A DNA stretch of 64,000 bases from a virus (IMGVR_UViG_3300032320_000838:1-64000), one strand, 5' to 3'; positions 1-25,348 are shown, numbered from the stretch's first letter. The notes: a model not told the origin generated them from the letters alone. Made by a program: numbers and translations.

Positions 1-587
1 ATAAACACTCCATCTATTACAAATCCCATACGAACGCTTCCTGCTCCAAGCCATTCTAAATCCATCCATAAAATTTGTGCTTTAGAAATATCAAGTGTGA
101 TGCCAGATTGACCGCTTCCATTCAATGTATCCCCATTCCAATTAGACTGTGCAATTCTGGTATTTACTGTTGATCCACTGACAGAACTTCGTTTTACCAA
201 ATAAATATCACTTCCATCAAGTTCAACATAAAATCCGTTGGCAGATCCAAAATATCCAGTTCTTTGTCTTAAACCCGATTTGGGTGAATTCATTGTAAAC
301 GAAGAAAGAATTTGCAAAGATTTTCCTGGCTGGTAGGGAAATACCTTTGTAGTTTCACGATAGACATAGTTGCCAGATGTAACTCCAATTGTCAGATCAA
401 CAAGACCTTGGTTGGTATTGAATGTTGCAGCAGATCCGCCCCCATTAACACCAGTAACCCATAAGCCATTATCTCGGTATCTATGAGTTGAATCAAAAAG
501 TGTAAATGGGTTAGTTACGGTTAGTCTACCAAATGCGTCTGTAGCAGTTGGTACAAAGCCAACTTGATTATTGTATAAGTATGACAT
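1..587 (-). CDS. Putative virion structural protein, runs off the left edge of the window
   Basis: Hand translation MSYLYNNQVGFVPTATDAFGRLTVTNPFTLFDSTHRYRDNGLW...WMDLEWLGAGSVRMGFVIDGVF is open to base 1. ATG overlaps the upstream TAA (TAATG). The DAFGRL..NPFTLFD start is one I recall from large environmental phages. Confidence 0.7.
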   Translation of the reverse strand, partial: MSYLYNNQVGFVPTATDAFGRLTVTNPFTLFDSTHRYRDNGLWVTGVNGGGSAATFNTNQGLVDLTIGVTSGNYVYRETTKVFPYQPGKSLQILSSFTMNSPKSGLRQRTGYFGSANGFYVELDGSDIYLVKRSSVSGSTVNTRIAQSNWNGDTLNGSGQSGITLDISKAQILWMDLEWLGAGSVRMGFVIDGVF

Positions 588-2602: not shown

Positions 2603-2604
2603 AT

Positions 2605-2611
2605 TATTTAT
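2605..2611 (-). promoter_or_regulatory. T4-type late promoter ATAAATA
   Basis: Overlaps the thyX stop codon, immediately before the collagen gene ATGs. Confidence 0.5.
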
Positions 2612-3306
2612 GAAACAAGTTGCTCCCACGAAACGGGGAAAAGCGGTTGAATTATGCTCCCAATCGCTTCAGCGTAGCAACGAACCTCCCACTGCGCGTG
2701 AGCGTCTATACGCTGCTTATAGACGCGGGCAAACGCAGATAGAGATCCTGTCCACCACCACTCTGTGTAGGTTGCCTGCGGTAGAATACCTCTTGCTTGC
2801 TCTGGTGCTACACCTAGGCCAAGAAGGTGATTGTATACTTTTACACACTCATTGGCTGCCTGTGCAAACCCATTATTTGCAATAATCTGCTCATCCGTGA
2901 TGAACTCAGAACTACCCTGTTTTGCACCATTTGTTGGCGCACCTCTCCAGATAGGAGTATAGAACTGCGGTTCTTCCACGACATACCGACGAGATACTTC
3001 GTTCATAACAAGCCCAACTTGATGTTTACCTAATTGTGCTCTAATAAAAATTGGTGTTTTAATGTGGATGGTTATTTGTGGATGAGCGAATGGTGTCCAG
3101 TGATTATTTTTTGCCAAATATCCAATCAATTTCTTGTCTTTGTCGGAGAGTTTTCTTTCTCTCGTTCCTGTCCAGTGCGGATCACTGTCCCAATCACTTT
3201 CTTTGTTAAATGACACTCTTGCTGCATTAACGACTGTAAGGTCGGAGCCCATATGTTCGATGTATCTAACAAATCCATGATCTAGCACATTAATAAGTTC
3301 ACTCAT
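2608..3306 (-). CDS. thyX: FAD-dependent thymidylate synthase
   Basis: GSDLTVVNAARVSF, HWTPF, RAQLGKHQVGLVMNEVSRRYV (ThyX motif variant), EQARGILPQ, HAQWE. Confidence 0.95.
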   Translation of the reverse strand: MSELINVLDHGFVRYIEHMGSDLTVVNAARVSFNKESDWDSDPHWTGTRERKLSDKDKKLIGYLAKNNHWTPFAHPQITIHIKTPIFIRAQLGKHQVGLVMNEVSRRYVVEEPQFYTPIWRGAPTNGAKQGSSEFITDEQIIANNGFAQAANECVKVYNHLLGLGVAPEQARGILPQATYTEWWWTGSLSAFARVYKQRIDAHAQWEVRCYAEAIGSIIQPLFPVSWEQLVS

Positions 3307-11765: not shown

Positions 11766-12245
11766 TTAAATCTCACAAATAACTATTGTTTCTGTTGGTT
11801 CCGTCACAGTATCTATGGTGTAACTAGTGGGATCGACTAACGAAATCATTTGTAGAACTTCATTTTCATCAAAAGTCAGCATCTTTCCGCTTCTTGGAAA
11901 TGGCTTGATTGTGGAGAACACGACATACTTCTTGGCACGCTTTGATCCTTTTGCAAGAAGTTCTCGACACTGCTCCTTGTCACCATAGGCAAATACACCA
12001 AAAAAACATACAAGATCGTATTTCTTTCTTGCAGGAATAGAAGTATATGTCTTGCAGTTACAGAGAGCAAGAGATTCCTCTCTGATGTCCATCGCTTCAT
12101 ATGATATGTCACCAAGAACATTCTGCAATAGACAAGGACCAGATCCGACATCAAGAACAGAAGAAAACTCCAGGCGATTCAGAACAGAAAACCGTCTGAG
12201 ATCGCCTGGAGAATATCCTACATCTTTTGCGTTTTTATACATCAT
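11766..12245 (-). CDS. Small class I SAM-dependent methyltransferase, substrate unknown
   Basis: VLDVGSG motif I, acidic MDIREE, YDLVCFFGVF. Confidence 0.75.
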   Translation of the reverse strand: MMYKNAKDVGYSPGDLRRFSVLNRLEFSSVLDVGSGPCLLQNVLGDISYEAMDIREESLALCNCKTYTSIPARKKYDLVCFFGVFAYGDKEQCRELLAKGSKRAKKYVVFSTIKPFPRSGKMLTFDENEVLQMISLVDPTSYTIDTVTEPTETIVICEI

Positions 12246-12516
12246 CTGCAAAGATAAAATCACCAAGTGTCTTTATGAATTGATACACTTGGGCAATGTC
12301 GAGGCTTGATGGAAAATACTGCTGAACCATTTCAGCAGAGACATCGTACTCAAGAACCTTTAATGGACTTGCCATATTATCTCTTGCATCCTTGTCGTAG
12401 TAACCAGAGACAACCACATGGGCAGTTCCATGAAGACTGTCGAGTGAAATATCAGTGATCTTCCAATATGACGCAACTACTCCGTAATCGGTTCCGATTT
12501 GCTTGAAGAGTGCCAT
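12235..12516 (-). CDS. Small putative virion-associated protein
   Basis: ATG at 12516 overlaps the upstream TAA (TAATG). MALFKQIGTDYGVVASYWKI... Confidence 0.65.
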   Translation of the reverse strand: MALFKQIGTDYGVVASYWKITDISLDSLHGTAHVVVSGYYDKDARDNMASPLKVLEYDVSAEMVQQYFPSSLDIAQVYQFIKTLGDFIFADDV

Positions 12517-13991
12517 TATTCGAAGTATCCATTCACCATTACTTGACCTCTCCATACGAGGGAGGCAGTTGCTGCACCGTTGAGTTGCTTGAGAATGATG
12601 TGCATATATGTACCAGCAGGAACAACAAGTGGAGCATCAGTAAACTGCACATCGAAGCCTGGTGCCATGGTTCCTAGTGGTGCTGCTGCAAGGAAACTTT
12701 GGACTCCTAGCGGAACTCTCTTTGGCGCTACAGATGCTGACGCATCGGTGGTGGCAAGTGATACGGCAGATGATCCAACACCTGCTGCCCAGAAGAATGT
12801 TGTGGCATTTACGGCAGCAGCACCTGTCACAACAAGACCACAAACACGAATTGATGTGATATAGAGTGTCTTGCCTGGAAGTGCGTTGGTTCCAGTAGGA
12901 TTTTGATATCCAAACATTATCCAATCGGTTTCGTTGGTTGCGTTTGCTGCAAGTGCAAATTGACCACCCAAAGTAGAATATCCCTGTCCAGCACCGCCAG
13001 CCGCAGTATTTGACGGAGAAGTAATTGATACAGGAGCAGTAGAATTGTTCCAGTTTGCAGTCTGTGCAGGTGTAGATCCCAATTGATTTTGATAAGCACC
13101 TTGTCCAAGACCGCAAAGAGCATGTGACCAAGGCTTATTATTATGTTGATCGCCCAAAGAGACATTGAGGAATCCAATTTCAACACGGCGACCAGTAGAT
13201 GAAATACCAGTATTGTAGACGCGAGTGAAGATTGGTTGTGATGCGGATGATGTCAAGGATGGTTGTGCATCTGGACATCCAATTGACGCTACAAGAGTGT
13301 CATTCACCCAAAAGTTTGCAATGTCATTGTGAATAACGATGAGGAAGTGATTACACTCAGAAGGATCATATGCTCCAACACCAGATCGGACAGCAACATT
13401 GGTGGTATCAATTGTCGCTTCGGTTTCAGTACCACCGAAGTTCACGACTGCCTTGAGAACACCAGAAGTGTTTCTGCGGAAGAACACACCATCAGTCGGT
13501 GCTGTCGTGGTTGCAGCGTATCCAAGACCCCATTCGGAGATAGCATTCGTTGCATTGTGATTACCTTCACGAATCCATAGGTCGGTGTAGGTTGGATAGG
13601 TTCCATAGAGTGGGAAAGTACGGCGTGTGGTGACGACAGCATAGTTACCGTTTGCAGTTGCGTTACCGCTATTTAAAACAAAGTAACCAGACGCTTGGTT
13701 AGTTGTCATCGTTGAAAGAGACTGATTTATAATATGTGTAGCGATGGTAGTACCTTCAAACGATTGATTGTATAGCGTTTGATCAAGACCCACACGAAGA
13801 CGAAAATCGTCCGATGCTTCTAGCGGAATCACGGTGCGTGTTCCAAGAACATCGCCAGGATCTGCCTCTGTTGAGAGTTGCACGAAACCCGCATTGATTT
13901 CTGTCTGTGGAGTCACTACTTGTAACTCGTATGTTGCACTGACATTCGCAAGACCCGCCGAATTGTTTCCACCTTTAATTTGAACGCCCAT
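12516..13991 (-). CDS. Putative virion/receptor-binding beta-sandwich protein
   Basis: AAGGAG RBS before the ATG at 13991. T/A/G/S-rich beta composition; end of the fibre island. Confidence 0.6.
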   Translation of the reverse strand: MGVQIKGGNNSAGLANVSATYELQVVTPQTEINAGFVQLSTEADPGDVLGTRTVIPLEASDDFRLRVGLDQTLYNQSFEGTTIATHIINQSLSTMTTNQASGYFVLNSGNATANGNYAVVTTRRTFPLYGTYPTYTDLWIREGNHNATNAISEWGLGYAATTTAPTDGVFFRRNTSGVLKAVVNFGGTETEATIDTTNVAVRSGVGAYDPSECNHFLIVIHNDIANFWVNDTLVASIGCPDAQPSLTSSASQPIFTRVYNTGISSTGRRVEIGFLNVSLGDQHNNKPWSHALCGLGQGAYQNQLGSTPAQTANWNNSTAPVSITSPSNTAAGGAGQGYSTLGGQFALAANATNETDWIMFGYQNPTGTNALPGKTLYITSIRVCGLVVTGAAAVNATTFFWAAGVGSSAVSLATTDASASVAPKRVPLGVQSFLAAAPLGTMAPGFDVQFTDAPLVVPAGTYMHIILKQLNGAATASLVWRGQVMVNGYFE

Positions 13992-14003
13992 TATCAATTC
14001 TCC

Positions 14004-16505
14004 TTATTGTGCAAAGCACTTTACTGTATATTTTCCGTATGTTCCGTTTGGTGCGTAACCTATTATATCGAATCCTGTACCAACTACAAGATTATTTATC
14101 TCGAATTTGACTTCTTCTAATACTGCATCCTCTACATCGTGATCAGTTGATGTTCCGCCAAGAAGTCTACATGATATGCAAGAATCAGATGCAACCCAAG
14201 ACTGTCCTGTTACTGTTTTAACAACATAAGTTTCTGGTTTATGATATAAATTAATATTTGTTATTGAAGTCCAATATTCTAAAGGAACAGTTGGAGTTTG
14301 AATATAAACAGCATTTATAGTTTCAGCAATAACACCTTCCGCAGTTGTGCTTGTACCACCAACAAATGGTGGTTTTATTACTAATCTTGCTGACCACCCA
14401 TTTGTATCATCATAAAATGATTCGATACTTTCTAACTCACATGAGATGTAGGATGCTGTTCCCGTATCTATTGTTACTGGGGTATTTTCAATACCATATT
14501 TTTCTATATTTTGCAAAGAGGTATTAAAATCTACACCTAAACCATATATTGTTAATTGTATTTGATTAATGTTTACTGAAAAATCAACGGTTTGTGTCGT
14601 GGAAGTAGATACCACGGTCTGTGCAGTTAATCTTCCACCGACAGTAAGCGAATCTGTTGTTTTATTATAAGTAAGACCAGAATCACCACCAAGAGAGGTT
14701 CCACCATCATTAAACTGAACCTGAGTATTAGATCCTGCTGCTCCAGCGGACGCGCTGGCCCAAGAAAGCGTACCCGAACCATTTGTGGTCAATACCTGTC
14801 CATTACTTCCATTAGTGGTTGGGAAGGTATATAAACCAGTTCCCGTATCAAATGTAATTGTTCCTGCACTATCATTAACTGTCAATATAGTGCTGTTGCC
14901 CACACCATCAACATCACCTATTTGAATAGGACTACCTGATGTATTACACTTGATATTCATTCCGTTAGCAGAACCATCTGTAAGATTGGAATAGAATAAC
15001 ATTCCAGAACCAGTTCTTGAGAATGATATGTTTCCGTTACAGAGATTTATTACAGCACCGTTGGCATTTGTTCCAAGATTTACGGTGGTTGCAGCGGCGG
15101 TTCCCACATTGATAGTGGTTGCATTATTGTTGTACAAAGATGCCGAGCCTGTGGTAGTTGTTGTAATATCTCCACCGTTTACTGCAATATCTCCAGCAAG
15201 TGTAACACTGTCGGTTGTCTTGTTGTAAGTGAAACCGGCATCACCACCAAAAGTGCTACCATCATTAAACTGTACATAAGTATCAGAACCACCAGGCGAA
15301 CCAGAACCAGATACAGTCGCCCACTGTAGGGTTGCATCATTTCCTGCAACTGAAGCAATCTGCAATACTTGATTTGCAGATCCTACTGCGGATGGAAGCG
15401 TATAGATGTTGTTGTTAGATACTGTTGCTGGAGCCTGAAAGGCGACATAGTTGGAGGAATCTGAATCAGCAAGACGCAAATCTCCCTGCGAACCTATCTG
15501 TAGGTTCGTACCGTCAAAAATTAGATCAGCATCACCCTTGAGGTTCTTAGTACCACTGTCATAGAACTGAATTTGCTGATTTGTAGGAGATGCCATAACA
15601 CCAACAGTTCCACCAGCATCTGGTAGAGTGATCGTCCTATCAGCAGTAGGATCCTCGACAGTTAATGTGGTTTCGTTAGTATTGTTCGTTGCTCCTTCAA
15701 ATATGATGTTTACAGGAGTAAAAGTAGCATCATCTGCTGTCTTTCGAGCAAGAAAAAGATCTCCACCAGCAATCTCGACTACACCTGTTGCTCCATCTGT
15801 ATTCTCCACAGTAATAGAGGGAATGCTTCCTTGGAACAAAATACCCGTAGTGGGTGCAAGAATAACCTCACCATAAGGAGATATGGTTATATGATTGGTA
15901 GATCCGCTATTTGTAACTACACTGGATGCTGTGTTTCCTAATGTTAAAGTAGCATTTCTTATTGCAGCAGTTCCGCTCGTTGCTCCCATCGTCAGAGTGG
16001 TTGCAGCACCACCAACACTTAAATTAGTAACGGTAGTATTGAAGACCGTAGCAGTGGTGGCACTTGTGGTTATGTCACCACCGTTTACTGCTAAATCTAA
16101 TGTAGTTGTGAGATTGTTCCTCACCAGTGTAGTGCCAGTGGTTGCACCAAAAGTCAGAGTGGTTGCGCTACGAAATGCTGTAGCGTTGGTTATGGACGCA
16201 CCATCAAGCAAGGCAACAGTGGATGCCGTACTAGTAATATCTCCACCGTTGACGGCGAGATCACCAGTAACAGTCAGAGTATCCGTTGTCTTGTTGTATG
16301 TAAGACCCGAATCGCCACCCATCACTCCACCATCATTAAACTGTACTTGAGTATCGGAACCGCCAGGAGCAGAACCAATAAGATCGCCGCTACCACCAGC
16401 ATTACCGATGTATATTCTTTTGTTAGTGGTGTCTACTGCCAACTCGTATTCAGTCAGTCCTGTAGATGGTGCTCCCGATCCTCGTTTTGGTTTGATAGTT
16501 GCCAT
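14004..16505 (-). CDS. Fibre-like protein with Mtd_N-like head and three QFNDGG..GGD.G.TYNKTTD repeats
   Basis: Starts MATIKPKRG...ELAVDTTNKRIYIG; internal repeats; Thr/Gly-rich. Confidence 0.75.
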   Translation of the reverse strand: MATIKPKRGSGAPSTGLTEYELAVDTTNKRIYIGNAGGSGDLIGSAPGGSDTQVQFNDGGVMGGDSGLTYNKTTDTLTVTGDLAVNGGDITSTASTVALLDGASITNATAFRSATTLTFGATTGTTLVRNNLTTTLDLAVNGGDITTSATTATVFNTTVTNLSVGGAATTLTMGATSGTAAIRNATLTLGNTASSVVTNSGSTNHITISPYGEVILAPTTGILFQGSIPSITVENTDGATGVVEIAGGDLFLARKTADDATFTPVNIIFEGATNNTNETTLTVEDPTADRTITLPDAGGTVGVMASPTNQQIQFYDSGTKNLKGDADLIFDGTNLQIGSQGDLRLADSDSSNYVAFQAPATVSNNNIYTLPSAVGSANQVLQIASVAGNDATLQWATVSGSGSPGGSDTYVQFNDGSTFGGDAGFTYNKTTDSVTLAGDIAVNGGDITTTTTGSASLYNNNATTINVGTAAATTVNLGTNANGAVINLCNGNISFSRTGSGMLFYSNLTDGSANGMNIKCNTSGSPIQIGDVDGVGNSTILTVNDSAGTITFDTGTGLYTFPTTNGSNGQVLTTNGSGTLSWASASAGAAGSNTQVQFNDGGTSLGGDSGLTYNKTTDSLTVGGRLTAQTVVSTSTTQTVDFSVNINQIQLTIYGLGVDFNTSLQNIEKYGIENTPVTIDTGTASYISCELESIESFYDDTNGWSARLVIKPPFVGGTSTTAEGVIAETINAVYIQTPTVPLEYWTSITNINLYHKPETYVVKTVTGQSWVASDSCISCRLLGGTSTDHDVEDAVLEEVKFEINNLVVGTGFDIIGYAPNGTYGKYTVKCFAQ
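14652..16367. repeat. Three dispersed ~85-nt coding repeats (14652-14735, 15211-15297, 16282-16367)
   Basis: Each encodes GS(D/N)T(Q/Y)VQFNDG..GGD(S/A)G(L/F)TYNKTTD; all share ACCATCATTAAACTG on the plus strand. Confidence 0.85.
15637..15662. repeat. 26-nt exact repeat, copy 1 (copy 2 at 22162-22187)
   Basis: CTATCAGCAGTAGGATCCTCGACAGT inside the shared module PVNIIFEG..ETTLTVEDPTADRTITLP..GTVGV. Confidence 0.9.
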
Positions 16506-16531
16506 TATTTCTCCAGAATATAAAGATCAAA

Positions 16532-16750
16532 TCAGTATGTCTGACCGTCTAGTGATTCTTCCTTCTTCTTGGACTTCTTTTGTCCTTCTACCTTTGCTTG
16601 CAGTGCTTCAACCTTTGCCTGTAGATCTCTGTTTTTGGCCTGTTCTACAAGCAAATTTACTTCCAAAACAAGATTGTTATTCACAAGATCTTGATATTTC
16701 TTCTGTAAGACAGGTATGACTACTGTTTCACTATAGTTCACTTCGCTCAT
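16532..16750 (-). CDS. Small coiled-coil protein (possible fibre chaperone or adaptor)
   Basis: Heptad-like LQAKVEALQAKVE; AGGAG RBS; ends LDGQTY. Confidence 0.7.
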   Translation of the reverse strand: MSEVNYSETVVIPVLQKKYQDLVNNNLVLEVNLLVEQAKNRDLQAKVEALQAKVEGQKKSKKKEESLDGQTY

Positions 16751-16768
16751 TATAAATCTCCTTTACAT

Positions 16769-16775
16769 TATGTAT
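16769..16775 (-). promoter_or_regulatory. Late promoter variant ATACATA
   Basis: Intergenic, upstream of the AGGAG RBS of 16532..16750. Confidence 0.4.
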
Positions 16776-18151
16776 CAGAAGGTTCCACCATCCACGATGG
16801 CTTCTACTTTATAGGCAGTCAAAACACCAGTGGAAGGAACATAAGAAAGAACAGAAAGACCTGCTTGAGCAGTGGCATCAATCTTAAGAGCACCAGAAGC
16901 ACCAGAAGCAGCAAATGTCAGATAAAGAGCAGTGTTGTCGGAAGAAGTTGCTTCAGTCAGTCCGACATTAGTTGCTGTTGTTGCAGTGGTCGCTGTTGTA
17001 GCAGAACCTACCGAAAGAGAGGACTGAGAGGTCCAAGTCGGAGCAGCGGCTCCAGCAGATGTGAGAACTTGTCCAGATGTGCCAGCGGCAGATATTGCCA
17101 TTGCAGATGCGGTAGAATAAACCACACCACCGTTTACTGCTGTGAGAGATGCATTCGTACCACCGTGAGAAAGTCCAACATCAGTTGCTTCCCAAGTACC
17201 AGTACCGATTGTACCAACAGATGTTAGAGAAGATGCAGTCACACCAGAACCAAGTGTATTCGAGGAAAGAACACTTGTTCCGTTGATGTAATACGCCTTA
17301 CCAGAAGCAAGATTGAGATGCTCGGAAGAAGTCCAAGCATCAGTGGCATCTACCCAGTTAAATGTCTTATCGGTTGCACCCTTAAGAGTAATACCACCAC
17401 CATCAGCAGTAAGATCAGAAGGTGTGGCCACATCTCCGATTATAACATTCTTGTCTTCCACGACCAGATTGGTTGTGTTAATATTTGTTGTCGTACCATT
17501 TACAGTCAAATCACCGCTAAGGGTGAGTCCTACTGCTGTGATTACACCAGTGCTTGGGTTATAAGAAAGTGGTGTGGTGGTGTCATCGACATACAGAGTA
17601 GAACCAGATCCAGCAGTGGTAGACATCACCAAATATCTGGTGGTGTTGGTGTTGTCTGAAGTTGTGGTTACGGTTGTAGCAGAAGAAGCATCCGCCCAAG
17701 ACAATTGAGATATATTAGAAGAAGGAACAGCAGCGGAAAGAACTTGTCCTGCTGTTGGATCTGTGGTTGGCATCAAATATGTGATGTTTGTTGTTCTAGC
17801 AGAACCACGGAAAGCAGAGTAGTTAGAACCATCATCTGTATCTTCCAACAGACGGATTTCACCTGGCGCAGTTGCACCTTGTCCAAAGTTAACGACACCA
17901 GTGAAAGTTCCACCTGCCTTGGGCATAAAGGTGGTGTTGATGGCAGATTGTGTTGCTAGTTTTACTGCACTTGTCCAATCGCCAGGAGAGGTCTCGATTT
18001 GAGCACCAACCCAGATCGGAGTCGTTGTACCATCATCTGCGGTTTTCAGCCAGATCTTGGGTGTACTGGTATTCGCTGCCAACTCACCAGAGTTGGTTAC
18101 ATTTGCTGCTGTAGGATCGGTTGTACCTCTTTTGATTCTAATTGTAGCCAT
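16775..18151 (-). CDS. Fibre-like protein (KRG head, DGGTF tail)
   Basis: MATIRIKRG...GELAANT; module EDKNVIIG..TADGGGITLKG; ends VDGGTF. Confidence 0.75.
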   Translation of the reverse strand: MATIRIKRGTTDPTAANVTNSGELAANTSTPKIWLKTADDGTTTPIWVGAQIETSPGDWTSAVKLATQSAINTTFMPKAGGTFTGVVNFGQGATAPGEIRLLEDTDDGSNYSAFRGSARTTNITYLMPTTDPTAGQVLSAAVPSSNISQLSWADASSATTVTTTSDNTNTTRYLVMSTTAGSGSTLYVDDTTTPLSYNPSTGVITAVGLTLSGDLTVNGTTTNINTTNLVVEDKNVIIGDVATPSDLTADGGGITLKGATDKTFNWVDATDAWTSSEHLNLASGKAYYINGTSVLSSNTLGSGVTASSLTSVGTIGTGTWEATDVGLSHGGTNASLTAVNGGVVYSTASAMAISAAGTSGQVLTSAGAAAPTWTSQSSLSVGSATTATTATTATNVGLTEATSSDNTALYLTFAASGASGALKIDATAQAGLSVLSYVPSTGVLTAYKVEAIVDGGTF

Positions 18152-18166
18152 TTTCCACTCCTAATT

Positions 18167-18982
18167 TTAGAAAGTCCCACCATCCATAACCATATTTTCA
18201 CCCAGATATTCCAATTCAGCGTCTGTTCCGCCCCGAACCCCGACATCAGTTTCCAAATATCCAGAAACTATGAGGTTCCCTGTTATGTATATGTTTCCGT
18301 CACCCCCTGCAACCAAGTTAGTAACTCCGCCAATACTACCATTACCAACACTAAAATTCATTTCTAATGTATTTGATAGATTGATTTGTTGAGATTGAAT
18401 GTTTAAAGGACAGGTTATTGTACCTATTACCAATTCTTCTGTCGGTGCAATTATTACATTTGAACCATTTATATAAACCTTGGAATTTAAACCTTCCGTG
18501 TCTATTTTTAAAATATCTATTTTAACACCCGATGCATTCTGTAAAGTACTCATTCTAAATGCATTTGGATTATTGTCTTGTAGAGATATTCCAAAAAACT
18601 CGTCATTTGAACCATCATATAACGAGGTAGACAAACCAAGATACATACCACTTCTTAGTAAATTCTGTAATGTGATCAAATCTGTAGTACCAGTGGAAAC
18701 ATCTAGAAAAGGCAACTTGTCTGCTTTATTGATACTCGTGTCTGTTCTCGTTATTGTAAACAAATCTAAGTTGAGATTGTTGTTGGTGTTTATATTAACA
18801 CCCTCACCGCTACTGTAAACATCCGCAGTGAAATTGTAATCCGAAATCAAAGCAGGGGATGCAGTACCATCACCGATCCAGATCTTCTTGTCTGGAATGT
18901 TTACTGCCATTTCACCCATTTCTAGATCAGTAGGTATTACTCCAGAGGTAGTGGAACGCTTGGTTCTTAATACTACGGACAT
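18167..18982 (-). CDS. Fibre-like protein (Mtd_N-like head, DGGTF tail)
   Basis: MSVVLRTKRS..GEMAVNIPDKKIWIGDG; ends MDGGTF. Confidence 0.75.
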   Translation of the reverse strand: MSVVLRTKRSTTSGVIPTDLEMGEMAVNIPDKKIWIGDGTASPALISDYNFTADVYSSGEGVNINTNNNLNLDLFTITRTDTSINKADKLPFLDVSTGTTDLITLQNLLRSGMYLGLSTSLYDGSNDEFFGISLQDNNPNAFRMSTLQNASGVKIDILKIDTEGLNSKVYINGSNVIIAPTEELVIGTITCPLNIQSQQINLSNTLEMNFSVGNGSIGGVTNLVAGGDGNIYITGNLIVSGYLETDVGVRGGTDAELEYLGENMVMDGGTF

Positions 18983-20157
18983 CAGTAGAACCCTCCATCT
19001 ATGTCTATATCACCCACAGTAGCGGTTCCTGTGACTGTCAGATCTCCGTATATGGTAGTTGCAGTTATTCCATCAGTGGAACCATCACCAATCTCTATGA
19101 GTTCTGCTGCACCACCGATACTCAGATCTGTTATGTTTGTGTCGAAGATAGAGGCGGCACCCGTCAAACTGCTTTTAATAGTCGCAGGATACGATACGCT
19201 TGCTTCTGTATATGGGGTTATATCAATATAACTTTCTATACCTATTGGAGAAAGAAATGTCTGCTTTCCTTTTGTTGCACCATCAGATCCGAGTAGAGCG
19301 ACTTTTGCTCCCGCTGTGTCCGCAAGATAGGCATTAAACGCAGCAAATGATTGTACAAATCCCAACTGTACGGTTGCTGGCTCTGCGCCGTTTGCAGCAT
19401 ATACTGTCTTAGAACACAAGAAATAGTAAACACCACCACCAGAATTGCCTGGAACCCATATGTCGCCATCATTTCCAGTTTGGTCGGGAAAACAATACTT
19501 TAAAGAAGCAGTAACTCTGTTTGCAAAATTGCTGTTAAAAGTAGTAACACTGTCACCAGATGAAACACCACCATTCGCATTAGTCCATGCACCAAATTCT
19601 ATAAATTCTCTATTGGTGCCGGTAGTATCGGGTTGGGCCGTATCCGTAAGATCGAGTTTTCTTTCATATACACGCAAAGGCATCGCTGAAATTGCCTTCT
19701 GTGTGACCAAGACATAATCAGAAGGTCTATTCCAATCTGCCTTTAGAACAACAAAATTTCCATTAGATCCACCATCCTCTTTTTGAGGATAATACGCTCG
19801 TATCTCTGCACCGACCCAGAGAGGTCTTGTCTGATCAACATTTGTCGCTGGACTACCAGTGTAAGGATAGGCATTAGTATACTGAGAATTATCGAATGTA
19901 GTATCGCTTTCAGCGGTTCCTCCATTAGTCGAACCAAAACTGTCCATACCCAACCACAAACGATTAGGATAGTTGTTTTTTGCGAAACCAGTAAGACCGG
20001 TAGTTGATCTATAAAACTCAGACAACCCCACTATCTGAGCGGCAGGCATACCCTTAAGCAATACCTTTGCGTCAGTATCAGGATCTGTATTATCCTGTGT
20101 GTAATCGTACGGCATCACAGAGCCGCGCTTGAGTAGTAGATTACCAGTTCCTGCCAT
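18982..20157 (-). CDS. Fibre-like protein, N-terminal paralog of 20205..23411
   Basis: MAGTGNLLLKRG...YPNRLW...W.GAEIRA...ADW..PSDYVLVTQKAI; ends IDGGFY. Confidence 0.7.
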   Translation of the reverse strand: MAGTGNLLLKRGSVMPYDYTQDNTDPDTDAKVLLKGMPAAQIVGLSEFYRSTTGLTGFAKNNYPNRLWLGMDSFGSTNGGTAESDTTFDNSQYTNAYPYTGSPATNVDQTRPLWVGAEIRAYYPQKEDGGSNGNFVVLKADWNRPSDYVLVTQKAISAMPLRVYERKLDLTDTAQPDTTGTNREFIEFGAWTNANGGVSSGDSVTTFNSNFANRVTASLKYCFPDQTGNDGDIWVPGNSGGGVYYFLCSKTVYAANGAEPATVQLGFVQSFAAFNAYLADTAGAKVALLGSDGATKGKQTFLSPIGIESYIDITPYTEASVSYPATIKSSLTGAASIFDTNITDLSIGGAAELIEIGDGSTDGITATTIYGDLTVTGTATVGDIDIDGGFY

Positions 20158-20190
20158 TATTCATCCTATAGAGTTCGAAGGAAACAGAAG

Positions 20191-20197
20191 TATTTAG
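20191..20197 (-). promoter_or_regulatory. Late promoter CTAAATA
   Basis: In the 47-nt intergenic gap upstream of 18982..20157. Confidence 0.55.
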
Positions 20198-20204
20198 TTA
20201 AGTA

Positions 20205-23200
20205 TCAGGTGTATGATCCGCAATCCAAAGTTGCTCCGATGTAGTCGCAGTAGAGAGTTCCTGTCCCATTACCGACCTCATAAAACAGACCAGTGCTTGA
20301 ATTTGTTGGAGCAGATGGTGTACTTTGCATAGTCGCGTTGGTCGCATCTGTAAACAGGTAAGCAGTGGCTGTATTACCATCCGCAGACAAACCACTCCAA
20401 GAAGAAGCAGGATTATTATCAGAACTGGAACCCAAGAAAGGAACAGGATACTTAGTAGTGGTAGCGTTTGATTCTGTTCTTACAGTTACTGTACTTGCAG
20501 AAGAACTACCCCAAGACAAATTACCAGAACCATCATTAGTCAGAACAGTGTTTGCACCACCCTGTGCTGCTGGCAAAGACAAAGTATACGATGTAGTGAT
20601 TGCGTTTGGATTGATTGTAATATTTCCACTTGTGCTCCCATATAACTTTAAAGTTGTTTTATTCAGAACAATATCATCCACAACAGTAAAAGATTTACCG
20701 CTTGCGATACTGAAGTGCTCAGAAGACCTCCAAACACCTGTAGTACCTGATATAGAAGTGTTGTTCCACAATAAAGTTTTATCAGTTGTACCTTTGAGAG
20801 TAATACCACCACCATCTGCTGTAGTGGCATCATTAGGAGTGGTGACAGATCCAATTTCGATATTTTTGTCATCTACTGTTAAAGTCGTGGAATTTACTGT
20901 TGTTGTTGTTCCCTCGACAACAAGATTACCTTTAACATTTACTGTCGCGCCAGTGGATCCACCACCAAGATTAATAGTAGCAGTACTTGAACCAATATTT
21001 ACTGTTGTGGCCGCGCCTCCGAGATTAAGGGTAGTGGCATTCGCGTTAAACACATTCGCTGTAGGGGCATTAGTGTTGATAGTCGCAGATCCGCTACCAG
21101 TGGCGCCTCTGATGTTAAGACTACTACTTCCACCTGTTTTTCCTATATTTACTACAGCACTATCATCACCCAAATGAATAGTGCTTGCACCACCAGTATT
21201 TGTTGTTGCTGATGTGCTACTTGTTCCTATTCTTACTACAGTTGCTGTTGTTGCAAACAAACTCGCTTCAGAAGTCGTTGTCGTGATATCCGCGCTTGTT
21301 GCTCCGTTTACGGCAAGATCACCACCAACACTTGCACTACCAGCGATAGCAACAGTACCTGAAGCATTACCTATATTCATACCCGATGTTGCACCACCAC
21401 CGATATTGACTGTAACGGCATTAGTATTAAATAGTGTTGCAGTACCAGTTGATGTAGTTGTGATGTCTCCACCATTTACGGCAAGATCACCCGTCATAGT
21501 CAATTTATCAGTAGACGGATTGTATGTGATACCATCAGAACTGTCTATAGAAAGACCAAGAGTACCGCCGGACAAAGCAAGTGGTCCTAATACCAAGTTA
21601 TATTCTGCGTTATCACTTACTTCAGTTCCGCTAACAGTGGAAGCATTACCAGTAGATGCCCAAGTAAGAGCACCCGAAGTACCACTCGCAACAAGAGCAT
21701 AACCGCTAGTACCAGATGGAGCATCTGGTAATGTCAGAGTGTAAGAAGAAGCAACCGAATCTGGTGACTTTATACCAACATATTGACTTCCATTTCCAGA
21801 TGCTTCGAACAGTTGGACGGTTTTTGTAGTAGCACCTCCACCAATCTTAAGATCACTGGCAACGGCAACAATACCAGAACTATTTCCAATATTAACAGCA
21901 GTAGTAGCACCACCACCAAAGTTTATTGTAGTTGCCGTACTGTTCAGAAGACTCACAGTACTATTACTTGTTCCTAATGTGTTTCCTATATTTACGACAC
22001 CATCAAGTGTGAATGTTGTTGTGGAGTCATTAAACGAGAAAGAAGAAGAACCCAAAAGATTTCTTGTCGTTGTATCGTAATATGGTATTCTACCATCAGT
22101 CAAGGCGGTAGATGTATCAAGAACACCCACAGTACCAGAAGCATTAGGCAAAGTTATTGTTCTATCAGCAGTAGGATCCTCGACAGTCAATGTCGTTTCA
22201 GAACCATCAGCAGTTGTTCCTTCGAATATTATATTTACTGGAGTAGAGGCTCCACCATCTGTTATTATTTTATTTCCTAGATAAAGATCACCACCTTCAA
22301 TATTGACAAACTGATTATTTGTTCCCGATAATTGACCAGGCATTACAGTTAAAGTTGGTCTTGTACTACCGTCAACAGTAGCCTGACTTCCTCTTATCAC
22401 AGTACCATTACCACCAGAAGCATTTATTTCTAAAGTATTGTTATTTCCTATTTTTTCGGTAGTCAATCCTGATGCACCATTAAGAATCATAGCATTAGTT
22501 GTGATGGTGTTTGTGCTTGGATTGTATGTAAGATCAGTATCGGTTCTTACATTTTCATTTCCTGTAGCGGCATCAACAAATGTGATATAGTGTGTGGCGT
22601 TTGTGCTGTTTGTTGCCGTTAGTTTTATATTTGTCGCAGATACTGTAGCAGAACCTGTGGAAGTGGTTACAGAAATATCTCCACCAAGCACACCGAGAGC
22701 AGTACCTATAGTGAAATTTCTGGTAACATTCGAATTAGAGATATCAACACCAGACAAAAAATCACCAACAGCAGGTGAGGGTTCGGTAGTAAGTTCGGAT
22801 AAATCCAAACTAAAAGTAACTGTGTCACCAGAAACAGCAGTATCTACACCAGTTCCGCCAGTCAGGGTTAATGTGTCACTATCGACTATGGTTGTAGTGG
22901 TAGAACCATCAGAAACAGTAAACGAAGACATAGATCCAGCACCCAAAGTAGTGGTGGCCCAAGTATGAATTGCTTTCTGTGTGACGAGAACATAATCGGA
23001 GGGATTGTCCCAATCTGCTCGCATTACTACTGGTGAATCGGGAGGTGTATTGCTATTAGAATCACCGGTCGCATATACAGCGGTATCTGCTCTGATTTCA
23101 GCACCCATCCAAAGAGAACGATTGTTTCCACCAGTCGGTAGACCGTAAGGCATACTACCTATCGTACCACCAGGTCCAGTACCCGCTTCCGAAGAAGTAG

Positions 23201-23411
23201 AACCATAACCTTCAACACCAACCCAAAGACGATTTGGATAATTATCATACGCAAATGGTCCAGAAGCACTACCAGCACTGTTAGAAGGTCTAGATAAACC
23301 CATAATTTGAACAGCAGGCATACCATTTATAAGAGAAATGGTTGCGCTATTTTGTGCGGTAAGTGGCGTTGTCGTACCGCGCTTAAGAATTAAATTACCA
23401 GTTCCAGCCAT
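20205..23411 (-). CDS. Long fibre-like protein
   Basis: 1068 aa, T/G/S/A-rich; GDLAVNG.DITT repeats; shares modules with 14004..16505 and 16775..18151; ends LDCGSYT. Confidence 0.75.
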   Translation of the reverse strand: MAGTGNLILKRGTTTPLTAQNSATISLINGMPAVQIMGLSRPSNSAGSASGPFAYDNYPNRLWVGVEGYGSTSSEAGTGPGGTIGSMPYGLPTGGNNRSLWMGAEIRADTAVYATGDSNSNTPPDSPVVMRADWDNPSDYVLVTQKAIHTWATTTLGAGSMSSFTVSDGSTTTTIVDSDTLTLTGGTGVDTAVSGDTVTFSLDLSELTTEPSPAVGDFLSGVDISNSNVTRNFTIGTALGVLGGDISVTTSTGSATVSATNIKLTATNSTNATHYITFVDAATGNENVRTDTDLTYNPSTNTITTNAMILNGASGLTTEKIGNNNTLEINASGGNGTVIRGSQATVDGSTRPTLTVMPGQLSGTNNQFVNIEGGDLYLGNKIITDGGASTPVNIIFEGTTADGSETTLTVEDPTADRTITLPNASGTVGVLDTSTALTDGRIPYYDTTTRNLLGSSSFSFNDSTTTFTLDGVVNIGNTLGTSNSTVSLLNSTATTINFGGGATTAVNIGNSSGIVAVASDLKIGGGATTKTVQLFEASGNGSQYVGIKSPDSVASSYTLTLPDAPSGTSGYALVASGTSGALTWASTGNASTVSGTEVSDNAEYNLVLGPLALSGGTLGLSIDSSDGITYNPSTDKLTMTGDLAVNGGDITTTSTGTATLFNTNAVTVNIGGGATSGMNIGNASGTVAIAGSASVGGDLAVNGATSADITTTTSEASLFATTATVVRIGTSSTSATTNTGGASTIHLGDDSAVVNIGKTGGSSSLNIRGATGSGSATINTNAPTANVFNANATTLNLGGAATTVNIGSSTATINLGGGSTGATVNVKGNLVVEGTTTTVNSTTLTVDDKNIEIGSVTTPNDATTADGGGITLKGTTDKTLLWNNTSISGTTGVWRSSEHFSIASGKSFTVVDDIVLNKTTLKLYGSTSGNITINPNAITTSYTLSLPAAQGGANTVLTNDGSGNLSWGSSSASTVTVRTESNATTTKYPVPFLGSSSDNNPASSWSGLSADGNTATAYLFTDATNATMQSTPSAPTNSSTGLFYEVGNGTGTLYCDYIGATLDCGSYT
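22162..22187. repeat. 26-nt exact repeat, copy 2
   Basis: Identical to 15637-15662. Confidence 0.9.
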
Positions 23412-23434
23412 ATTCTAACCCCTTTGCGAAAAAG

Positions 23435-23830
23435 TCAGTAGTTTCCACAATCCATCAACATACCGTTTCCAAGATATTCCAACGCTTCATCCGTTCCACC
23501 ACGAATACCTGTGTCCGTCTCCAGATAGCCAGTGAGTATGATGTTTGCATCTATATGTATATTTCCAAAAGCATCTGGTATTAACATAATAACCTGACGC
23601 CAATTGGCATTATCTGTCCCCCCAATCAGAGTATAGAAAGCATTATTTGTACTTTCATACACCATCATTCCAACCTGTCTACGATCACTGGATATACCTT
23701 CTCTTTCCGTCGAATCGACCACAGTGCGTAGACCACCAAGACCATACTTCGGGTTGGTTACTGGGTAAGTGTCCAACTCCGAAGTTGGTGCAATCGGTGC
23801 AGCAACTGTGACGGTATTCGTGATTGGCAT
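23435..23830 (-). CDS. Small virion/fibre adaptor-like protein
   Basis: C-terminal GYLETDTGIRGGTDEALEYLG..MLMDCGNY is paralogous to the tail of 18167..18982. Confidence 0.7.
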   Translation of the reverse strand: MPITNTVTVAAPIAPTSELDTYPVTNPKYGLGGLRTVVDSTEREGISSDRRQVGMMVYESTNNAFYTLIGGTDNANWRQVIMLIPDAFGNIHIDANIILTGYLETDTGIRGGTDEALEYLGNGMLMDCGNY

Positions 23831-23831
23831 A

Positions 23832-24839
23832 TCAGGTTATATTCAGAGTGAAATCTCCATTAAGTTGATTAGTGGACTTGTATACCCTATAGGTAGAACT
23901 CGCTCCAGATGCATTCGTAAAGGTATAACTGGAAGAAACCAGAGGAAATGCTGGTGTCTGATCGGTCGTTCCTATGGATATGGATGTTATTGGGTTTAGG
24001 GAAGTGTGAACAAAAATATACACATATCCAGATCCTGCGGTAAGAGAAATACCAGATGCAGCAGGAGATGAACTGGAAGTGATGAACTGACTTGTTCCGT
24101 TGCTCAACTGTGCGTGATTTGTGATTGTAGTATGGTCGCTACTTGTGTTCTTACCGACATAGATCTTGCTTCTCCAAGAAATCGTCTGTGTACGAGTTGC
24201 CGCGGATCCTTCTTCCTGTGCAACACTTATTGTGTATATCAAGGTAGAACCAACTGTCGTAGTGGTTATTGCTGGAGGGTTCACGGATACGGATCCAGAT
24301 GATGCTGGATTTGCACCACTCAAAACGCTACCAGAAAACCCACCAGAGTACACATATGTGATGTTTGTTCCCGTTGCAGTTGCGTTGGAGATGTTCTGCA
24401 AACTCCAAGTAGGATTCAAGGCAGTAGTGGGAGATGTCTGTCCTATCTCAAATACAGTCTGAGAATAGTTCATACTGAAAGATGACACGGATACTGCCAG
24501 ATATGGATACAATATCCTCTCAAGAATGTCTATTGCAGTAAGACCAGTTAGAACATCACCCTGCTCAACACCACCTAATGTGATGTACACTGGTTCTGGG
24601 TTTGTCCAAGTTTCCGCTACTATTCCTGCGATATTATCAGCATACAGGGTTCCGCAACGAAGAATATCGACCTTGGATATGTCGTTGGTTATGATCGCTG
24701 CGTTAGGTAGTAGCGTTCCTTGTTGATCATAACCTCGCAATAGTTGACGCATTTCCGAGATTGTAGGTCTCGGTGCATCGGGTATTGGGAAGGGCTGAGC
24801 AACTCCATTTCTTACGATGTAGTTTTGTCTCTCAGCCAT
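23832..24839 (-). CDS. Putative virion structural protein
   Basis: GAGG RBS; S/T-rich beta composition; position in the late island. Confidence 0.6.
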   Translation of the reverse strand: MAERQNYIVRNGVAQPFPIPDAPRPTISEMRQLLRGYDQQGTLLPNAAIITNDISKVDILRCGTLYADNIAGIVAETWTNPEPVYITLGGVEQGDVLTGLTAIDILERILYPYLAVSVSSFSMNYSQTVFEIGQTSPTTALNPTWSLQNISNATATGTNITYVYSGGFSGSVLSGANPASSGSVSVNPPAITTTTVGSTLIYTISVAQEEGSAATRTQTISWRSKIYVGKNTSSDHTTITNHAQLSNGTSQFITSSSSPAASGISLTAGSGYVYIFVHTSLNPITSISIGTTDQTPAFPLVSSSYTFTNASGASSTYRVYKSTNQLNGDFTLNIT

Positions 24840-24842
24840 TTA

Positions 24843-24962
24843 TCACCTCGTATATACTATACTCGTTTTGTTGCTCTGTATTTTGACCTTGAACACATTC
24901 ACTTGATCCCTGACAGGTGTTATTTTAGGACGGACCTGCTCCGTTATTTTTATCTTGTTCAC
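24843..24962 (-). CDS. Small basic hypothetical protein (39 aa, not in the ORF track)
   Basis: GTGA start/stop overlap; MNKIKITEQVRPKITPVRDQVNVFKVKIQSNKTSIVYTR exactly fills the gap. Confidence 0.5.
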   Translation of the reverse strand: MNKIKITEQVRPKITPVRDQVNVFKVKIQSNKTSIVYTR

Positions 24963-25348
24963 GGAGCCTCCACCACGAATCTACCCTTCAGCAAACAATC
25001 CACCACATCGGTACTTGTTTCCAAAAACAGGTAGTAGAAATAAGGACCAGGATAAACAGTAGTCATCGTTTCGGTGCTGATGGTGATAGTCACCTCTTCA
25101 CCAGAAACCAAAATTGTTCCATAGGATCCTACAAGTGGTAAAGACAAATAACCTTCTTCGATATTGTCATCATAAGACAACTCAAAGAGATTCTTTTCCT
25201 GCGGAATGGCAGATCTTCTCACCACAAATCTTACATTTTCATATGTGGGGAGAATATCCAAAGCAGTATCATCACTTCCAAAGTACTGGAAAGCGATGGT
25301 ATACTCAGAACCCTGTTCGGCATAAATGTCGTGTATTCCTGCAAGCAT
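24959..25348 (-). CDS. Small Ig-like (BppU-like) virion protein
   Basis: AGIHDIYAEQGSEY...V.RLLKGRFVVE-type pattern typical of small T4-like virion proteins; TGATG coupling to regA. Confidence 0.55.
   Translation of the reverse strand: MLAGIHDIYAEQGSEYTIAFQYFGSDDTALDILPTYENVRFVVRRSAIPQEKNLFELSYDDNIEEGYLSLPLVGSYGTILVSGEEVTITISTETMTTVYPGPYFYYLFLETSTDVVDCLLKGRFVVEAP

What the first reader, a model, noticed from the sequence alone, without database searches (positions are those of the whole stretch)
14004..23830. Collinear plug-and-socket fibre genes: C-terminal D[G/C]Gx[F/Y] peptide followed by a KR[G/S]-headed protein
Seen: six consecutive genes end in the same short motif: MDCGNY (23435), LDCGSYT (20205), IDGGFY (18982), MDGGTF (18167), VDGGTF (16775) and LDGQTY (16532). 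Five start with a KR[G/S] head: NLILKRG, NLLLKRG, VLRTKRS, IRIKRG and IKPKRG, several continuing GE(L/M)AV(N/D)T..KIWIGDG like the Mtd N-terminal domain. The series opens with a tail-only gene (23435) and closes with a head-only gene (14004). In five of six cases a tail-motif gene is immediately followed by a head-motif gene; the exception is the 72-aa coiled coil. Inference: the terminal peptide completes or docks into the next protein's N-terminal beta domain, so separately encoded trimers could build an ordered or branched fibre. I cannot verify that this is undescribed.
Basis: partly seen in the sequence, partly recalled or inferred. Interest (0 to 1): 0.85.

Follow-up and report, generated by a model that had tools for sequence, protein, structure and literature searches.

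The report
Peptide-and-cap joints linking phage fibre proteins
Seven neighbouring tail-fibre genes of an uncultured T4-like phage carry matching end motifs (a short C-terminal "DGG-aromatic" peptide, then an N-terminal cap on the next protein) that most likely snap separate proteins end to end into one long fibre; I found no description of this connector, and binding was not tested here.

Summary
Six consecutive minus-strand genes end in h-h-D-[G/C]-[G/Q]-x-[F/Y], and five begin with a KR[G/S] cap. No other ORF in the 64 kb has either motif.

The pattern recurs in about ten other lineages. These include the two proteins that define Pfam Mtd_N: BPP-1 Bbp9 ends ADLGGIA just before Mtd, and a streptococcal prophage tail protein ends ILDGGKK just before HylP.

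Four comparative results favour a real joint:
- In a 27-member anchor family the last six residues stay invariant (D, G) while everything between the N-domain and the tail is replaced or deleted.
- DCG tails are always followed by the "GNLxLKRG" cap subtype, and DGG tails by canonical caps. Homologous anchors in other phages follow the same rule.
- One natural protein fuses the bodies of genes 3 and 4. It loses only the inner tail and cap and keeps the outer ones.
- The small coiled-coil protein lacks its tail in the one phage where no cap gene follows.

Junction DNA is not conserved, so these are not recombination linkers.

Physical docking stays untested. The complex predictor was closed, and a monomer read-through fold showed no confident contact.

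Earlier follow-ups in this scan reported the same connector in giant viruses and other phages. I found no paper describing it.

The parts
Possibly the baseplate-proximal piece.
   Evidence: A g0-like gene sits directly before the anchor in L010, L026, L027 and L028. In L027, L028 and P0017 the g0-like body carries an Mtd_N cap.
23435..23830 (-). g1, 131-aa anchor. Conserved N-domain (residues 1-85), no cap, tail MDCGNY at 23438-23455.
   Evidence: 37 homologues were found. In alignment A6 all 27 members end h-h-D-[C/G]-G-x-[Y/F], and D127 and G129 are invariant even where the middle part is deleted. PHROG hits are to virion and tail proteins.
20205..23411 (-). g2, 1068-aa fibre shaft. GNL-type cap at 23277-23411, tail LDCGSYT at 20208-20228.
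   Evidence: A DCG tail precedes it in the window, L001, L002, L007, L013 and L026.
18982..20157 (-). g3, 391 aa. GNL-type cap at 20023-20157, tail IDGGFY at 18985-19002.
   Evidence: Its body occurs fused to the g4 C-terminal module in P0007 on L029.
18167..18982 (-). g4, 271 aa. Canonical Mtd_N-like cap at 18848-18982, tail MDGGTF at 18170-18187.
   Evidence: Pfam Mtd_N E=0.0075, below the cut-off. A search with the 153-aa g4 homologue of L001 gave 266 relatives; caps lie at residues 1-50 and tail domains at the exact C-terminus.
16775..18151 (-). g5, 458 aa. Cap at 18017-18151, tail VDGGTF at 16778-16795.
   Evidence: In the AF2 model the cap has pLDDT about 90, and it aligns to Mtd residues 5-49 at rmsd 2.4 A over 44 residues. 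The middle module is shared with cyanophage virion structural proteins.
16532..16750 (-). g6, 72-aa coiled coil. No cap; conserved N-terminus EVNYxETV..P.LQ.K; tail LDGQTY at 16535-16552.
   Evidence: Alignment A7. A DGG tail always precedes it. It carries h-DG-x-TY where a cap gene follows (window, L001, L002, L010) and lacks it in L026, where none follows.
14004..16505 (-). g7, 833-aa distal fibre. Cap at 16371-16505, no tail, variable C-terminal domain.
   Evidence: Mtd_N E=0.013; tail fibre PHROG. The C-terminal half differs in L001 and L002.

Best explanation
These seven genes encode segments of one multi-protein tail fibre of a T4-like myovirus. The segments are joined non-covalently, head to tail. 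Each proximal trimer ends in a short peptide, hydrophobic-hydrophobic-D-[G/C]-G-x-aromatic, at or within two residues of the C-terminus. That peptide binds the small three-stranded Mtd_N/HylP-type cap that starts the next trimer. g1 is the anchor: it has a baseplate-side N-domain plus a tail and no cap. g2 to g5 are shaft segments with a cap and a tail. g6 is a coiled-coil coupler. g7 is the distal, receptor-side segment with a cap and no tail. Two specificity classes exist: DCG tails pair with GNL-type caps, and DGG tails pair with canonical caps.

Shown here: the motifs, their strict terminal position, collinearity across lineages, class covariation, the fusion variant, and the correlated loss.

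Inferred, not shown: direct binding, its geometry (perhaps strand addition to the cap), trimer stoichiometry, and a serial rather than branched order.
For: 1. The motifs occur only in these genes within the window and are kept in L001, L002 and L007 despite different middle parts.
2. Junction DNA differs at synonymous sites and the spacers are unrelated, so selection acts on the protein.
3. Of 266 relatives of the 153-aa g4 homologue of L001, caps sit at residues 1-50 and tail domains end exactly at the C-terminus. Minimal cap+tail adaptors of 80-94 aa exist.
4. The anchor family keeps the terminal hexapeptide while the preceding 40 residues are replaced or deleted.
5. A tail gene is followed directly by a cap gene in L010, L013, L014, L015, L018, L026, L027 and L029.
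6. Covariation: DCG anchors are followed by GNL caps (window, L001, L002, L007, L013, L026). Homologous DGG anchors are followed by canonical caps (L010, L027).
7. L029: a g2-like DCG tail is followed by P0007, which equals g3 residues 2-377 fused to g4-short residues 81-153. P0007 lacks the g3 tail and the g4 cap but keeps the GNL cap and the MVMDGGTF tail, and a g5-like cap gene follows it.
8. L026: the coiled-coil protein lacks the tail and no cap gene follows.
9. Archetypes: BPP-1 Bbp9 ends GLADLGGIA, 15 nt before mtd, and Mtd is known to sit at the fibre ends (PMC2408619). The prophage 315.4 tail protein ends QIILDGGKK and overlaps the start of hylP.
10. The cap model aligns to the N-terminal caps of Mtd and HylP.
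Against: No binding was predicted or measured here. Adjacent motifs are genetically linked, so covariation with only two classes could reflect co-inheritance of a junction block. The fusion protein P0007 is known from a single 1.4-kb contig. In L028 an anchor tail is followed by a gene without a cap. Fourteen proteins have internal caps behind extra N-terminal domains and no DGG, so a free N-terminus is not required. The first cap of some chains has no tail gene upstream (L014, L018). No virion proteomics exist for this phage. Pfam Mtd_N scores are below the gathering threshold.
Confidence: 0.6

Rival explanations
1. The tails and caps are real conserved modules but do not bind each other. Each binds a third party, such as a common baseplate hub, an assembly chaperone (perhaps the g6-like coiled coil) or a host structure. 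Adjacency would then reflect only tandem duplication of fibre genes.
For: Fibre genes duplicate and shuffle modules readily: g1 and g4 share a C-terminal cassette (51% identity), and modules are shared with other cyanophage proteins. No docking has been demonstrated.
Against: The first gene has a tail only and the last has a cap only. The L029 fusion loses exactly the inner tail and cap together. g6 loses its tail when no cap gene follows. Tail and cap subtypes covary. Mtd sits at the end of the fibre whose gene ends in DLGG.
Confidence: 0.17
2. The joints exist but the architecture is branched or alternative, not one serial seven-part fibre. For example, several cap-bearing fibres could compete for, or share, DGG tails on a hub.
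For: Three DGG-to-canonical-cap junctions (g3-g4, g4-g5, g6-g7) belong to one class with no obvious discriminator. g5's tail faces a protein without a cap. BPP-1 is reported to carry two Mtd trimers per fibre (PMC2408619).
Against: There is one anchor per locus. Collinear order is conserved across lineages. The fusion joins g3 to g4 in gene order.
Confidence: 0.15
3. The conserved gene ends are DNA-level recombination linkers for shuffling fibre cassettes and have no role in the protein.
For: The middle parts of the genes are swapped between relatives while the ends stay.
Against: The junctions share no DNA identity beyond what the amino acids force: synonymous codons differ and spacers of -1 to 47 nt are unrelated. 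The motif also persists across very distant phages with different GC content.
Confidence: 0.04
4. The 'tail' is only the natural end of a common fibre beta-repeat. The internal LAVNGGDIT motif of g2 and g7 resembles AIVDGGTF, so genes would tend to end there by chance of repeat phase.
For: I noticed this resemblance by eye in the translations. Internal NGGDIT motifs are followed in-chain by a hairpin that resembles the cap hairpin.
Against: The tail also ends proteins with no such repeat: the coiled coil g6, the 93-aa anchors, and the streptococcal tail protein. If the homology is real, it rather suggests that the joint mimics a continuous repeat.
Confidence: 0.04

Closest known systems
Phage T4 long tail fibre, gp34-gp35-gp36-gp37 (from my own knowledge)
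   Same: Contiguous, collinear genes encode separate fibre segments that join non-covalently end to end. The total size is similar: about 3200 residues per chain set here against about 2900 in T4. The phage backbone is T4-like.
   Different: There is no sequence relation to gp34-37. T4 is not known to use a repeated, portable peptide-and-cap connector. Here the same two motifs recur at every joint and in unrelated phages.
Bordetella phage BPP-1 Mtd on its tail fibre (Mtd_N, PF18454; PDB 1YU0)
   Same: An N-terminal three-stranded cap sits on a trimeric receptor-binding protein located at the fibre end (PMC2408619). The upstream fibre gene bbp9 ends GLADLGGIA, 15 nt before mtd. The g5 cap model aligns to Mtd residues 5-49.
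   Different: BPP-1 has a single joint and a variant tail (D-L-G-G-I-A, with no terminal aromatic). I found no description of a role for the Bbp9 C-terminus. The window's caps score below the Pfam threshold.
Streptococcal prophage hyaluronidase HylP (PDB 2C3F, 6X3M)
   Same: It has an N-terminal cap of the same Pfam family. In prophage 315.4 the preceding tail protein ends QIILDGGKK and overlaps the hylP start. The cap model aligns to HylP residues 7-67.
   Different: It is a siphophage baseplate context with one joint. The tail is followed by KK, not an aromatic. HylP itself has no DGG tail.
Branched tailspike adaptors of CBA120/G7C-type phages and BppU-BppL of TP901-1 (from my own knowledge)
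   Same: Separately encoded receptor-binding trimers dock through conserved N-terminal modules onto another fibre protein.
   Different: Those use gp10-like or Ig-like docking domains, not a C-terminal hexapeptide. No such domains were detected here.

Membership tests
Mtd_N (Pfam PF18454) N-terminal cap | Match to the Pfam model above its gathering score | tested here: inconclusive
   g4 scores 16.6 bits and g7 15.8 bits against a cut-off of 26.3; g2, g3 and g5 give no hit. Of 24 aligned caps, 10 hit Mtd_N and no other family, best E 1.5e-4. On L027 the precomputed Pfam annotation lists Mtd_N for cap-bearing neighbours.
Mtd_N (Pfam PF18454) N-terminal cap | Small three-stranded beta cap at the extreme N-terminus of a trimeric fibre or receptor-binding protein, superposable on Mtd and HylP | tested here: inconclusive
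   In the AF2 model the cap has pLDDT about 90 with three strands. The top Foldseek hits are HylP and Mtd, but with E>0.4. VIA gives Z 3.2, rmsd 2.4 A over 44 residues to Mtd 5-49, and Z 3.1 to HylP 7-67. The position is right but the scores are weak for so small a domain. Caps sit at residues 1-50 in most relatives.
T4-type serial long tail fibre | Homology to gp34, gp35, gp36 or gp37 | tested here: not met
   No Pfam or PHROG match to these families.
T4-type serial long tail fibre | Collinear adjacent genes for separately folded segments that join end to end | tested here: inconclusive
   Gene order and the L029 fusion support contiguity of g3 and g4. Physical joining was not tested.
Fibres with a C-terminal intramolecular chaperone (Peptidase_S74) | C-terminal autoproteolytic chaperone domain | tested here: not met
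   No Pfam hit in any of the seven proteins. The conserved element is only six to seven residues long.
DGG-tail / Mtd_N-cap connector (informal class from this scan's earlier follow-ups) | A gene ending in h-D-G-G-x near the C-terminus, directly followed by a gene starting with an Mtd_N-type cap | tested here: met
   Five junctions in the window. Further junctions in L010, L013, L014, L015, L018, L026, L027, L029, BPP-1 and prophage 315.4.
DGG-tail / Mtd_N-cap connector (informal class from this scan's earlier follow-ups) | Direct binding of the tail peptide to the cap | not testable with these tools

The most novel reading that the evidence does not exclude
The C-terminal h-h-D-G/C-G-x-aromatic peptide and the Mtd_N-type cap form a universal, portable, non-covalent connector with specificity classes (DCG/GNL against DGG/canonical). 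Very different viruses use it to build ordered multi-protein fibres, from T4-like myoviruses and small podophages to the classic Mtd and HylP systems and, according to earlier notes of this scan, giant viruses. The connector substitutes for a peptide bond, so genes can be split, fused or swapped at these joints.
Probability: 0.45. Interest if true: 0.85.

Novelty: new variant of a known kind. Interest (0 to 1): 0.72.

Why it matters
Tail fibres decide which hosts a phage can infect, yet how multi-gene fibres find their order of assembly is known in detail for very few phages. A short, recognisable tail-and-cap code would have three uses:
- The order and partners of fibre proteins could be read straight from metagenomic sequence.
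- It would explain how fibre segments are exchanged between phages without breaking assembly.
- It would assign a function to the Mtd_N/HylP cap, whose role in attachment I did not find described.

It would also give a small natural "snap" module for joining trimeric proteins. All of this depends on showing that the peptide really binds the cap.

Tried and rejected
No docking test was possible.
- The script machine was lost, so no large-scale statistics or trees were made. Motif tallies after that point were read by eye.
- I folded a stand-in as an AF2 monomer: the natural in-frame read-through of g4 tail, six residues, then g5 cap (table 6). The cap was confident, the tail was at pLDDT about 53, and there was no contact. 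This says nothing either way for an obligate trimer.
- Sequence searches of the PDB with g4, the cap profile and the anchor profile found nothing meaningful.
- tblastn of g3 and g4 against 50,697 phage records gave no match. Megablast of the locus gave none.
- Cultured relatives that share only middle modules (S-PM2 p175-177, S-CBP3 fibres) have neither motif.
- The anchor N-domain fold matched only collagen XV/XVIII trimerisation domains and SH2 domains weakly, so I made no assignment.
- The T4 late promoter TATAAATA is absent from the fibre block.
- An ESM Atlas search with g6 returned only unnamed viral clusters.
- Literature searches for a DGG motif, Mtd_N, Bbp9 and end-to-end fibre joints found no description. 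One of these searches was wasted on 'mtDNA' matches.
Full report
**Context**

The window is the first 64 kb of a 77.8-kb IMG/VR virus record, estimated about 43% complete. All genes lie on the minus strand in T4-like order: terminase, sheath, portal, scaffold, major capsid protein, UvsW, gp46/47, gp45, gp44, regA, then gp43 and gp41. Baseplate genes lie beyond the window. The capsid protein is only about 55% identical to those of cyanomyoviruses and of Methylophilales phage Melnitz. The phage is therefore a distant T4-like myovirus of unknown host. The fibre block sits between regA and gp43.

**The observation**

The ORF list reproduces every motif and coordinate in the finding. A six-frame scan of the window found the C-terminal motif only in the six named genes. 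It found the N-terminal KR[G/S] motif only in the five named genes, apart from two short ORFs on the non-coding strand.

Alignments show that the common tail is just hydrophobic-hydrophobic-D-[G/C]-[G/Q/S]-x-[F/Y], ending zero or one residue before the stop. The D is invariant. What precedes the tail is unrelated between genes, except that g1 and g4 share a cassette of about 45 residues.

The caps share KR[G/S] and a G-[E/M]-x-A motif. g4, g5 and g7 are canonical Mtd_N-like. g2 and g3 form a "GNLxLKRG" subtype with large insertions.

**Protein-level or DNA-level conservation**

The six junctions use different synonymous codons for the motif. Their spacers, from -1 to 47 nt, are unrelated. The conservation is therefore at the protein level. 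A role as a recombination linker is unlikely.

**Close relatives**

Three IMG/VR contigs (L001, L002, L007) keep the same series of tails and caps. Their middle regions differ strongly: g4 is 153 aa against 271, g5 is 635 or 530 against 458, and g7 is 601 or 509 against 833 with a different C-terminal domain. The ends are held constant while the bodies are exchanged.

**Wider distribution**

A full HMMER search of 1.84 billion representatives with the 153-aa g4 homologue of L001 gave 266 hits.
- Cap matches lie at residues 1-50 of almost all targets.
- Matches to the tail cassette always end at the target's last residue.
- Many cap-bearing proteins also end in DGG-x-[Y/F/W]. They include minimal adaptors of 80-94 aa that are little more than a cap and a tail.
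- Fourteen proteins carry the cap internally. There it follows extra N-terminal domains and PT-rich linkers, never a DGG motif.

**The anchor family**

g1 has 37 homologues. Across 27 of them the N-domain (residues 1-85) is conserved and the last six residues are always h-h-D-[C/G]-G-x-[Y/F]. The segment between varies: it is the 45-residue cassette, an unrelated 30-residue stretch, or nothing at all in the 93-94-aa forms. The hexapeptide therefore behaves as an autonomous element under strong selection at the exact C-terminus.

**Gene order elsewhere**

Contexts were read by eye.
- L010, T4-like with the same synteny: the anchor ends LDGGSY, followed by a 1327-aa protein that starts ATIKFKRG. 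That protein ends IDGGTYS, followed by a 79-aa coiled coil ending MDGETY, followed by a cap starting ATIKPRRG.
- L013: an anchor ending MDCGYY, then a GNL cap.
- L026: an anchor with a DCG tail, then a GNL cap protein with a DCG tail, then a GNL cap protein with a DGG tail, then the coiled coil.
- L014: a 90-aa adaptor (LDGGNF), then a cap protein ending IDGGSF, then a cap protein with a Collar domain.
- L015: two junctions.
- L018: four proteins in a row.
- L027, a polA phage with higher GC: three junctions.
- Exceptions: in L028 the anchor is followed by a gene without a cap (a cap-bearing gene lies just upstream instead). On L017 a protein ending NGGTF has no co-directional neighbour.

**Four results that go beyond adjacency**

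1. Subtype covariation. DCG tails are followed only by GNL caps (window twice, L001 twice, L002 twice, L007, L013, L026 twice, L029). Homologous anchors with DGG are followed by canonical caps (L010, L027).
2. A natural fusion. P0007 on L029 equals g3 residues 2-377 joined to g4-short residues 81-153 (53% and 70% identity). It lacks g3's tail and g4's cap. It keeps the GNL cap, which faces an upstream DCG tail, and the MVMDGGTF tail, which faces a downstream g5-like cap. The caveat is that this comes from one short contig.
3. Correlated loss. The coiled-coil protein ends h-DG-x-TY in the four lineages where a cap gene follows. It ends GDELTP in L026, where dUTPase follows.
4. The archetypes. 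BPP-1 bbp9 ends GLADLGGIA, 15 nt before mtd, and Mtd is located at the fibre ends (PMC2408619). The prophage 315.4 tail protein ends QIILDGGKK and overlaps the hylP start.

**Structure**

An AF2 monomer of the natural read-through, g4 tail then six residues then g5 cap, gave a confident three-stranded cap (pLDDT about 90) and an unstructured tail with no contact. For a trimeric assembly this says nothing either way.

The cap model's best structural neighbours are the N-terminal caps of HylP and Mtd. For Mtd residues 5-49 the rmsd is 2.4 A over 44 residues with Z 3.2; for HylP residues 7-67, Z is 3.1. These scores are weak, as expected for 45 residues. Pfam Mtd_N is the only family hit by the caps, at sub-threshold scores. 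The anchor N-domain folds with moderate confidence and has no clear neighbour.

**Interpretation**

The most economical reading is a non-covalent joint, C-terminal peptide into N-terminal cap, repeated along a fibre. g1 would be the anchor and g7 the distal, host-facing segment. The summed length is comparable to the T4 long tail fibre.

The coiled-coil g6 is not a random exception. A DGG tail always precedes it, and its N-terminus is invariant (EVNYxETV..P.LQ.K), so that N-terminus may be a second kind of socket. I hold this only weakly.

I also noticed by eye that the tail resembles the internal LAVNGGDIT motif of g2 and g7, which in-chain is followed by a hairpin like that of the cap. If the resemblance is real, the joint mimics a continuous fibre repeat. 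I could not test this after losing the script machine.

**Novelty**

Multi-protein fibres with non-covalent joints are known, for example in T4, in branched tailspike systems and in BppU/BppL. A repeated, portable hexapeptide-and-cap connector with specificity classes is not something I could find described. The library searched is incomplete.

Earlier follow-ups in this scan reported the same pairing in giant viruses and other phages. My evidence was gathered independently of theirs. It adds the T4-like case, the anchor family, the covariation, the fusion, the correlated loss, and the sequence-level check of the two archetypes.

Noticed in passing
window 23832-24839 (g0); L027 5871-6869; L028 6905-7999: A g0-like gene always sits directly upstream of the anchor. 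In other phages, and in P0017, the same body carries an Mtd_N cap, which the window's g0 lacks. It may be the baseplate-side partner of the anchor.
   Followed up: partly
window 14004-16505 and 20205-23411: g7 and g2 contain several copies of an internal repeat (QVQFNDGG..GLTYNKTTDxLTVxGDLAVNGGDIT). The repeat is also shared with the S-CBP3/S-CBP4 podophage tail fibres. Its NGGDIT part resembles the terminal tail motif.
   Followed up: partly
window 12235-25348: About 13 kb of structural fibre genes is inserted in the replication module between regA and gp43. The same placement is seen in L010 and L026.
   Followed up: partly
window 12516-13997 (g8): This 493-aa protein has no family hit. It starts VQIKGGN...ATYELQVVT, faintly cap-like, and follows the tail-less g7 after 6 nt. 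It is not conserved at this position in L001 or L002.
   Followed up: no
proteins P0022, P0023, P0025, P0029, P0032, P0059, P0073, P0105: Cap-bearing fibre proteins with extra N-terminal domains (a cysteine-containing beta domain, IPT/TIG) joined by PT-rich linkers ahead of the cap. P0073 and P0105 are only decoration + cap + IDGGTF tail.
   Followed up: partly
L001 9751-11556; L002 12356-13885; P0023, P0032, P0049: A shared distal tip domain ending ...WDGG..WY..GG(L/Q)NF(Y) closes many of these chains. The window's g7 has a different tip, which suggests receptor-domain swapping.
   Followed up: no
window 587-2629: A 680-aa collagen-like tail fibre protein (many PHROG tail fibre hits) lies downstream of gp41, outside the fibre block. 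It has neither a cap nor a tail.
   Followed up: no
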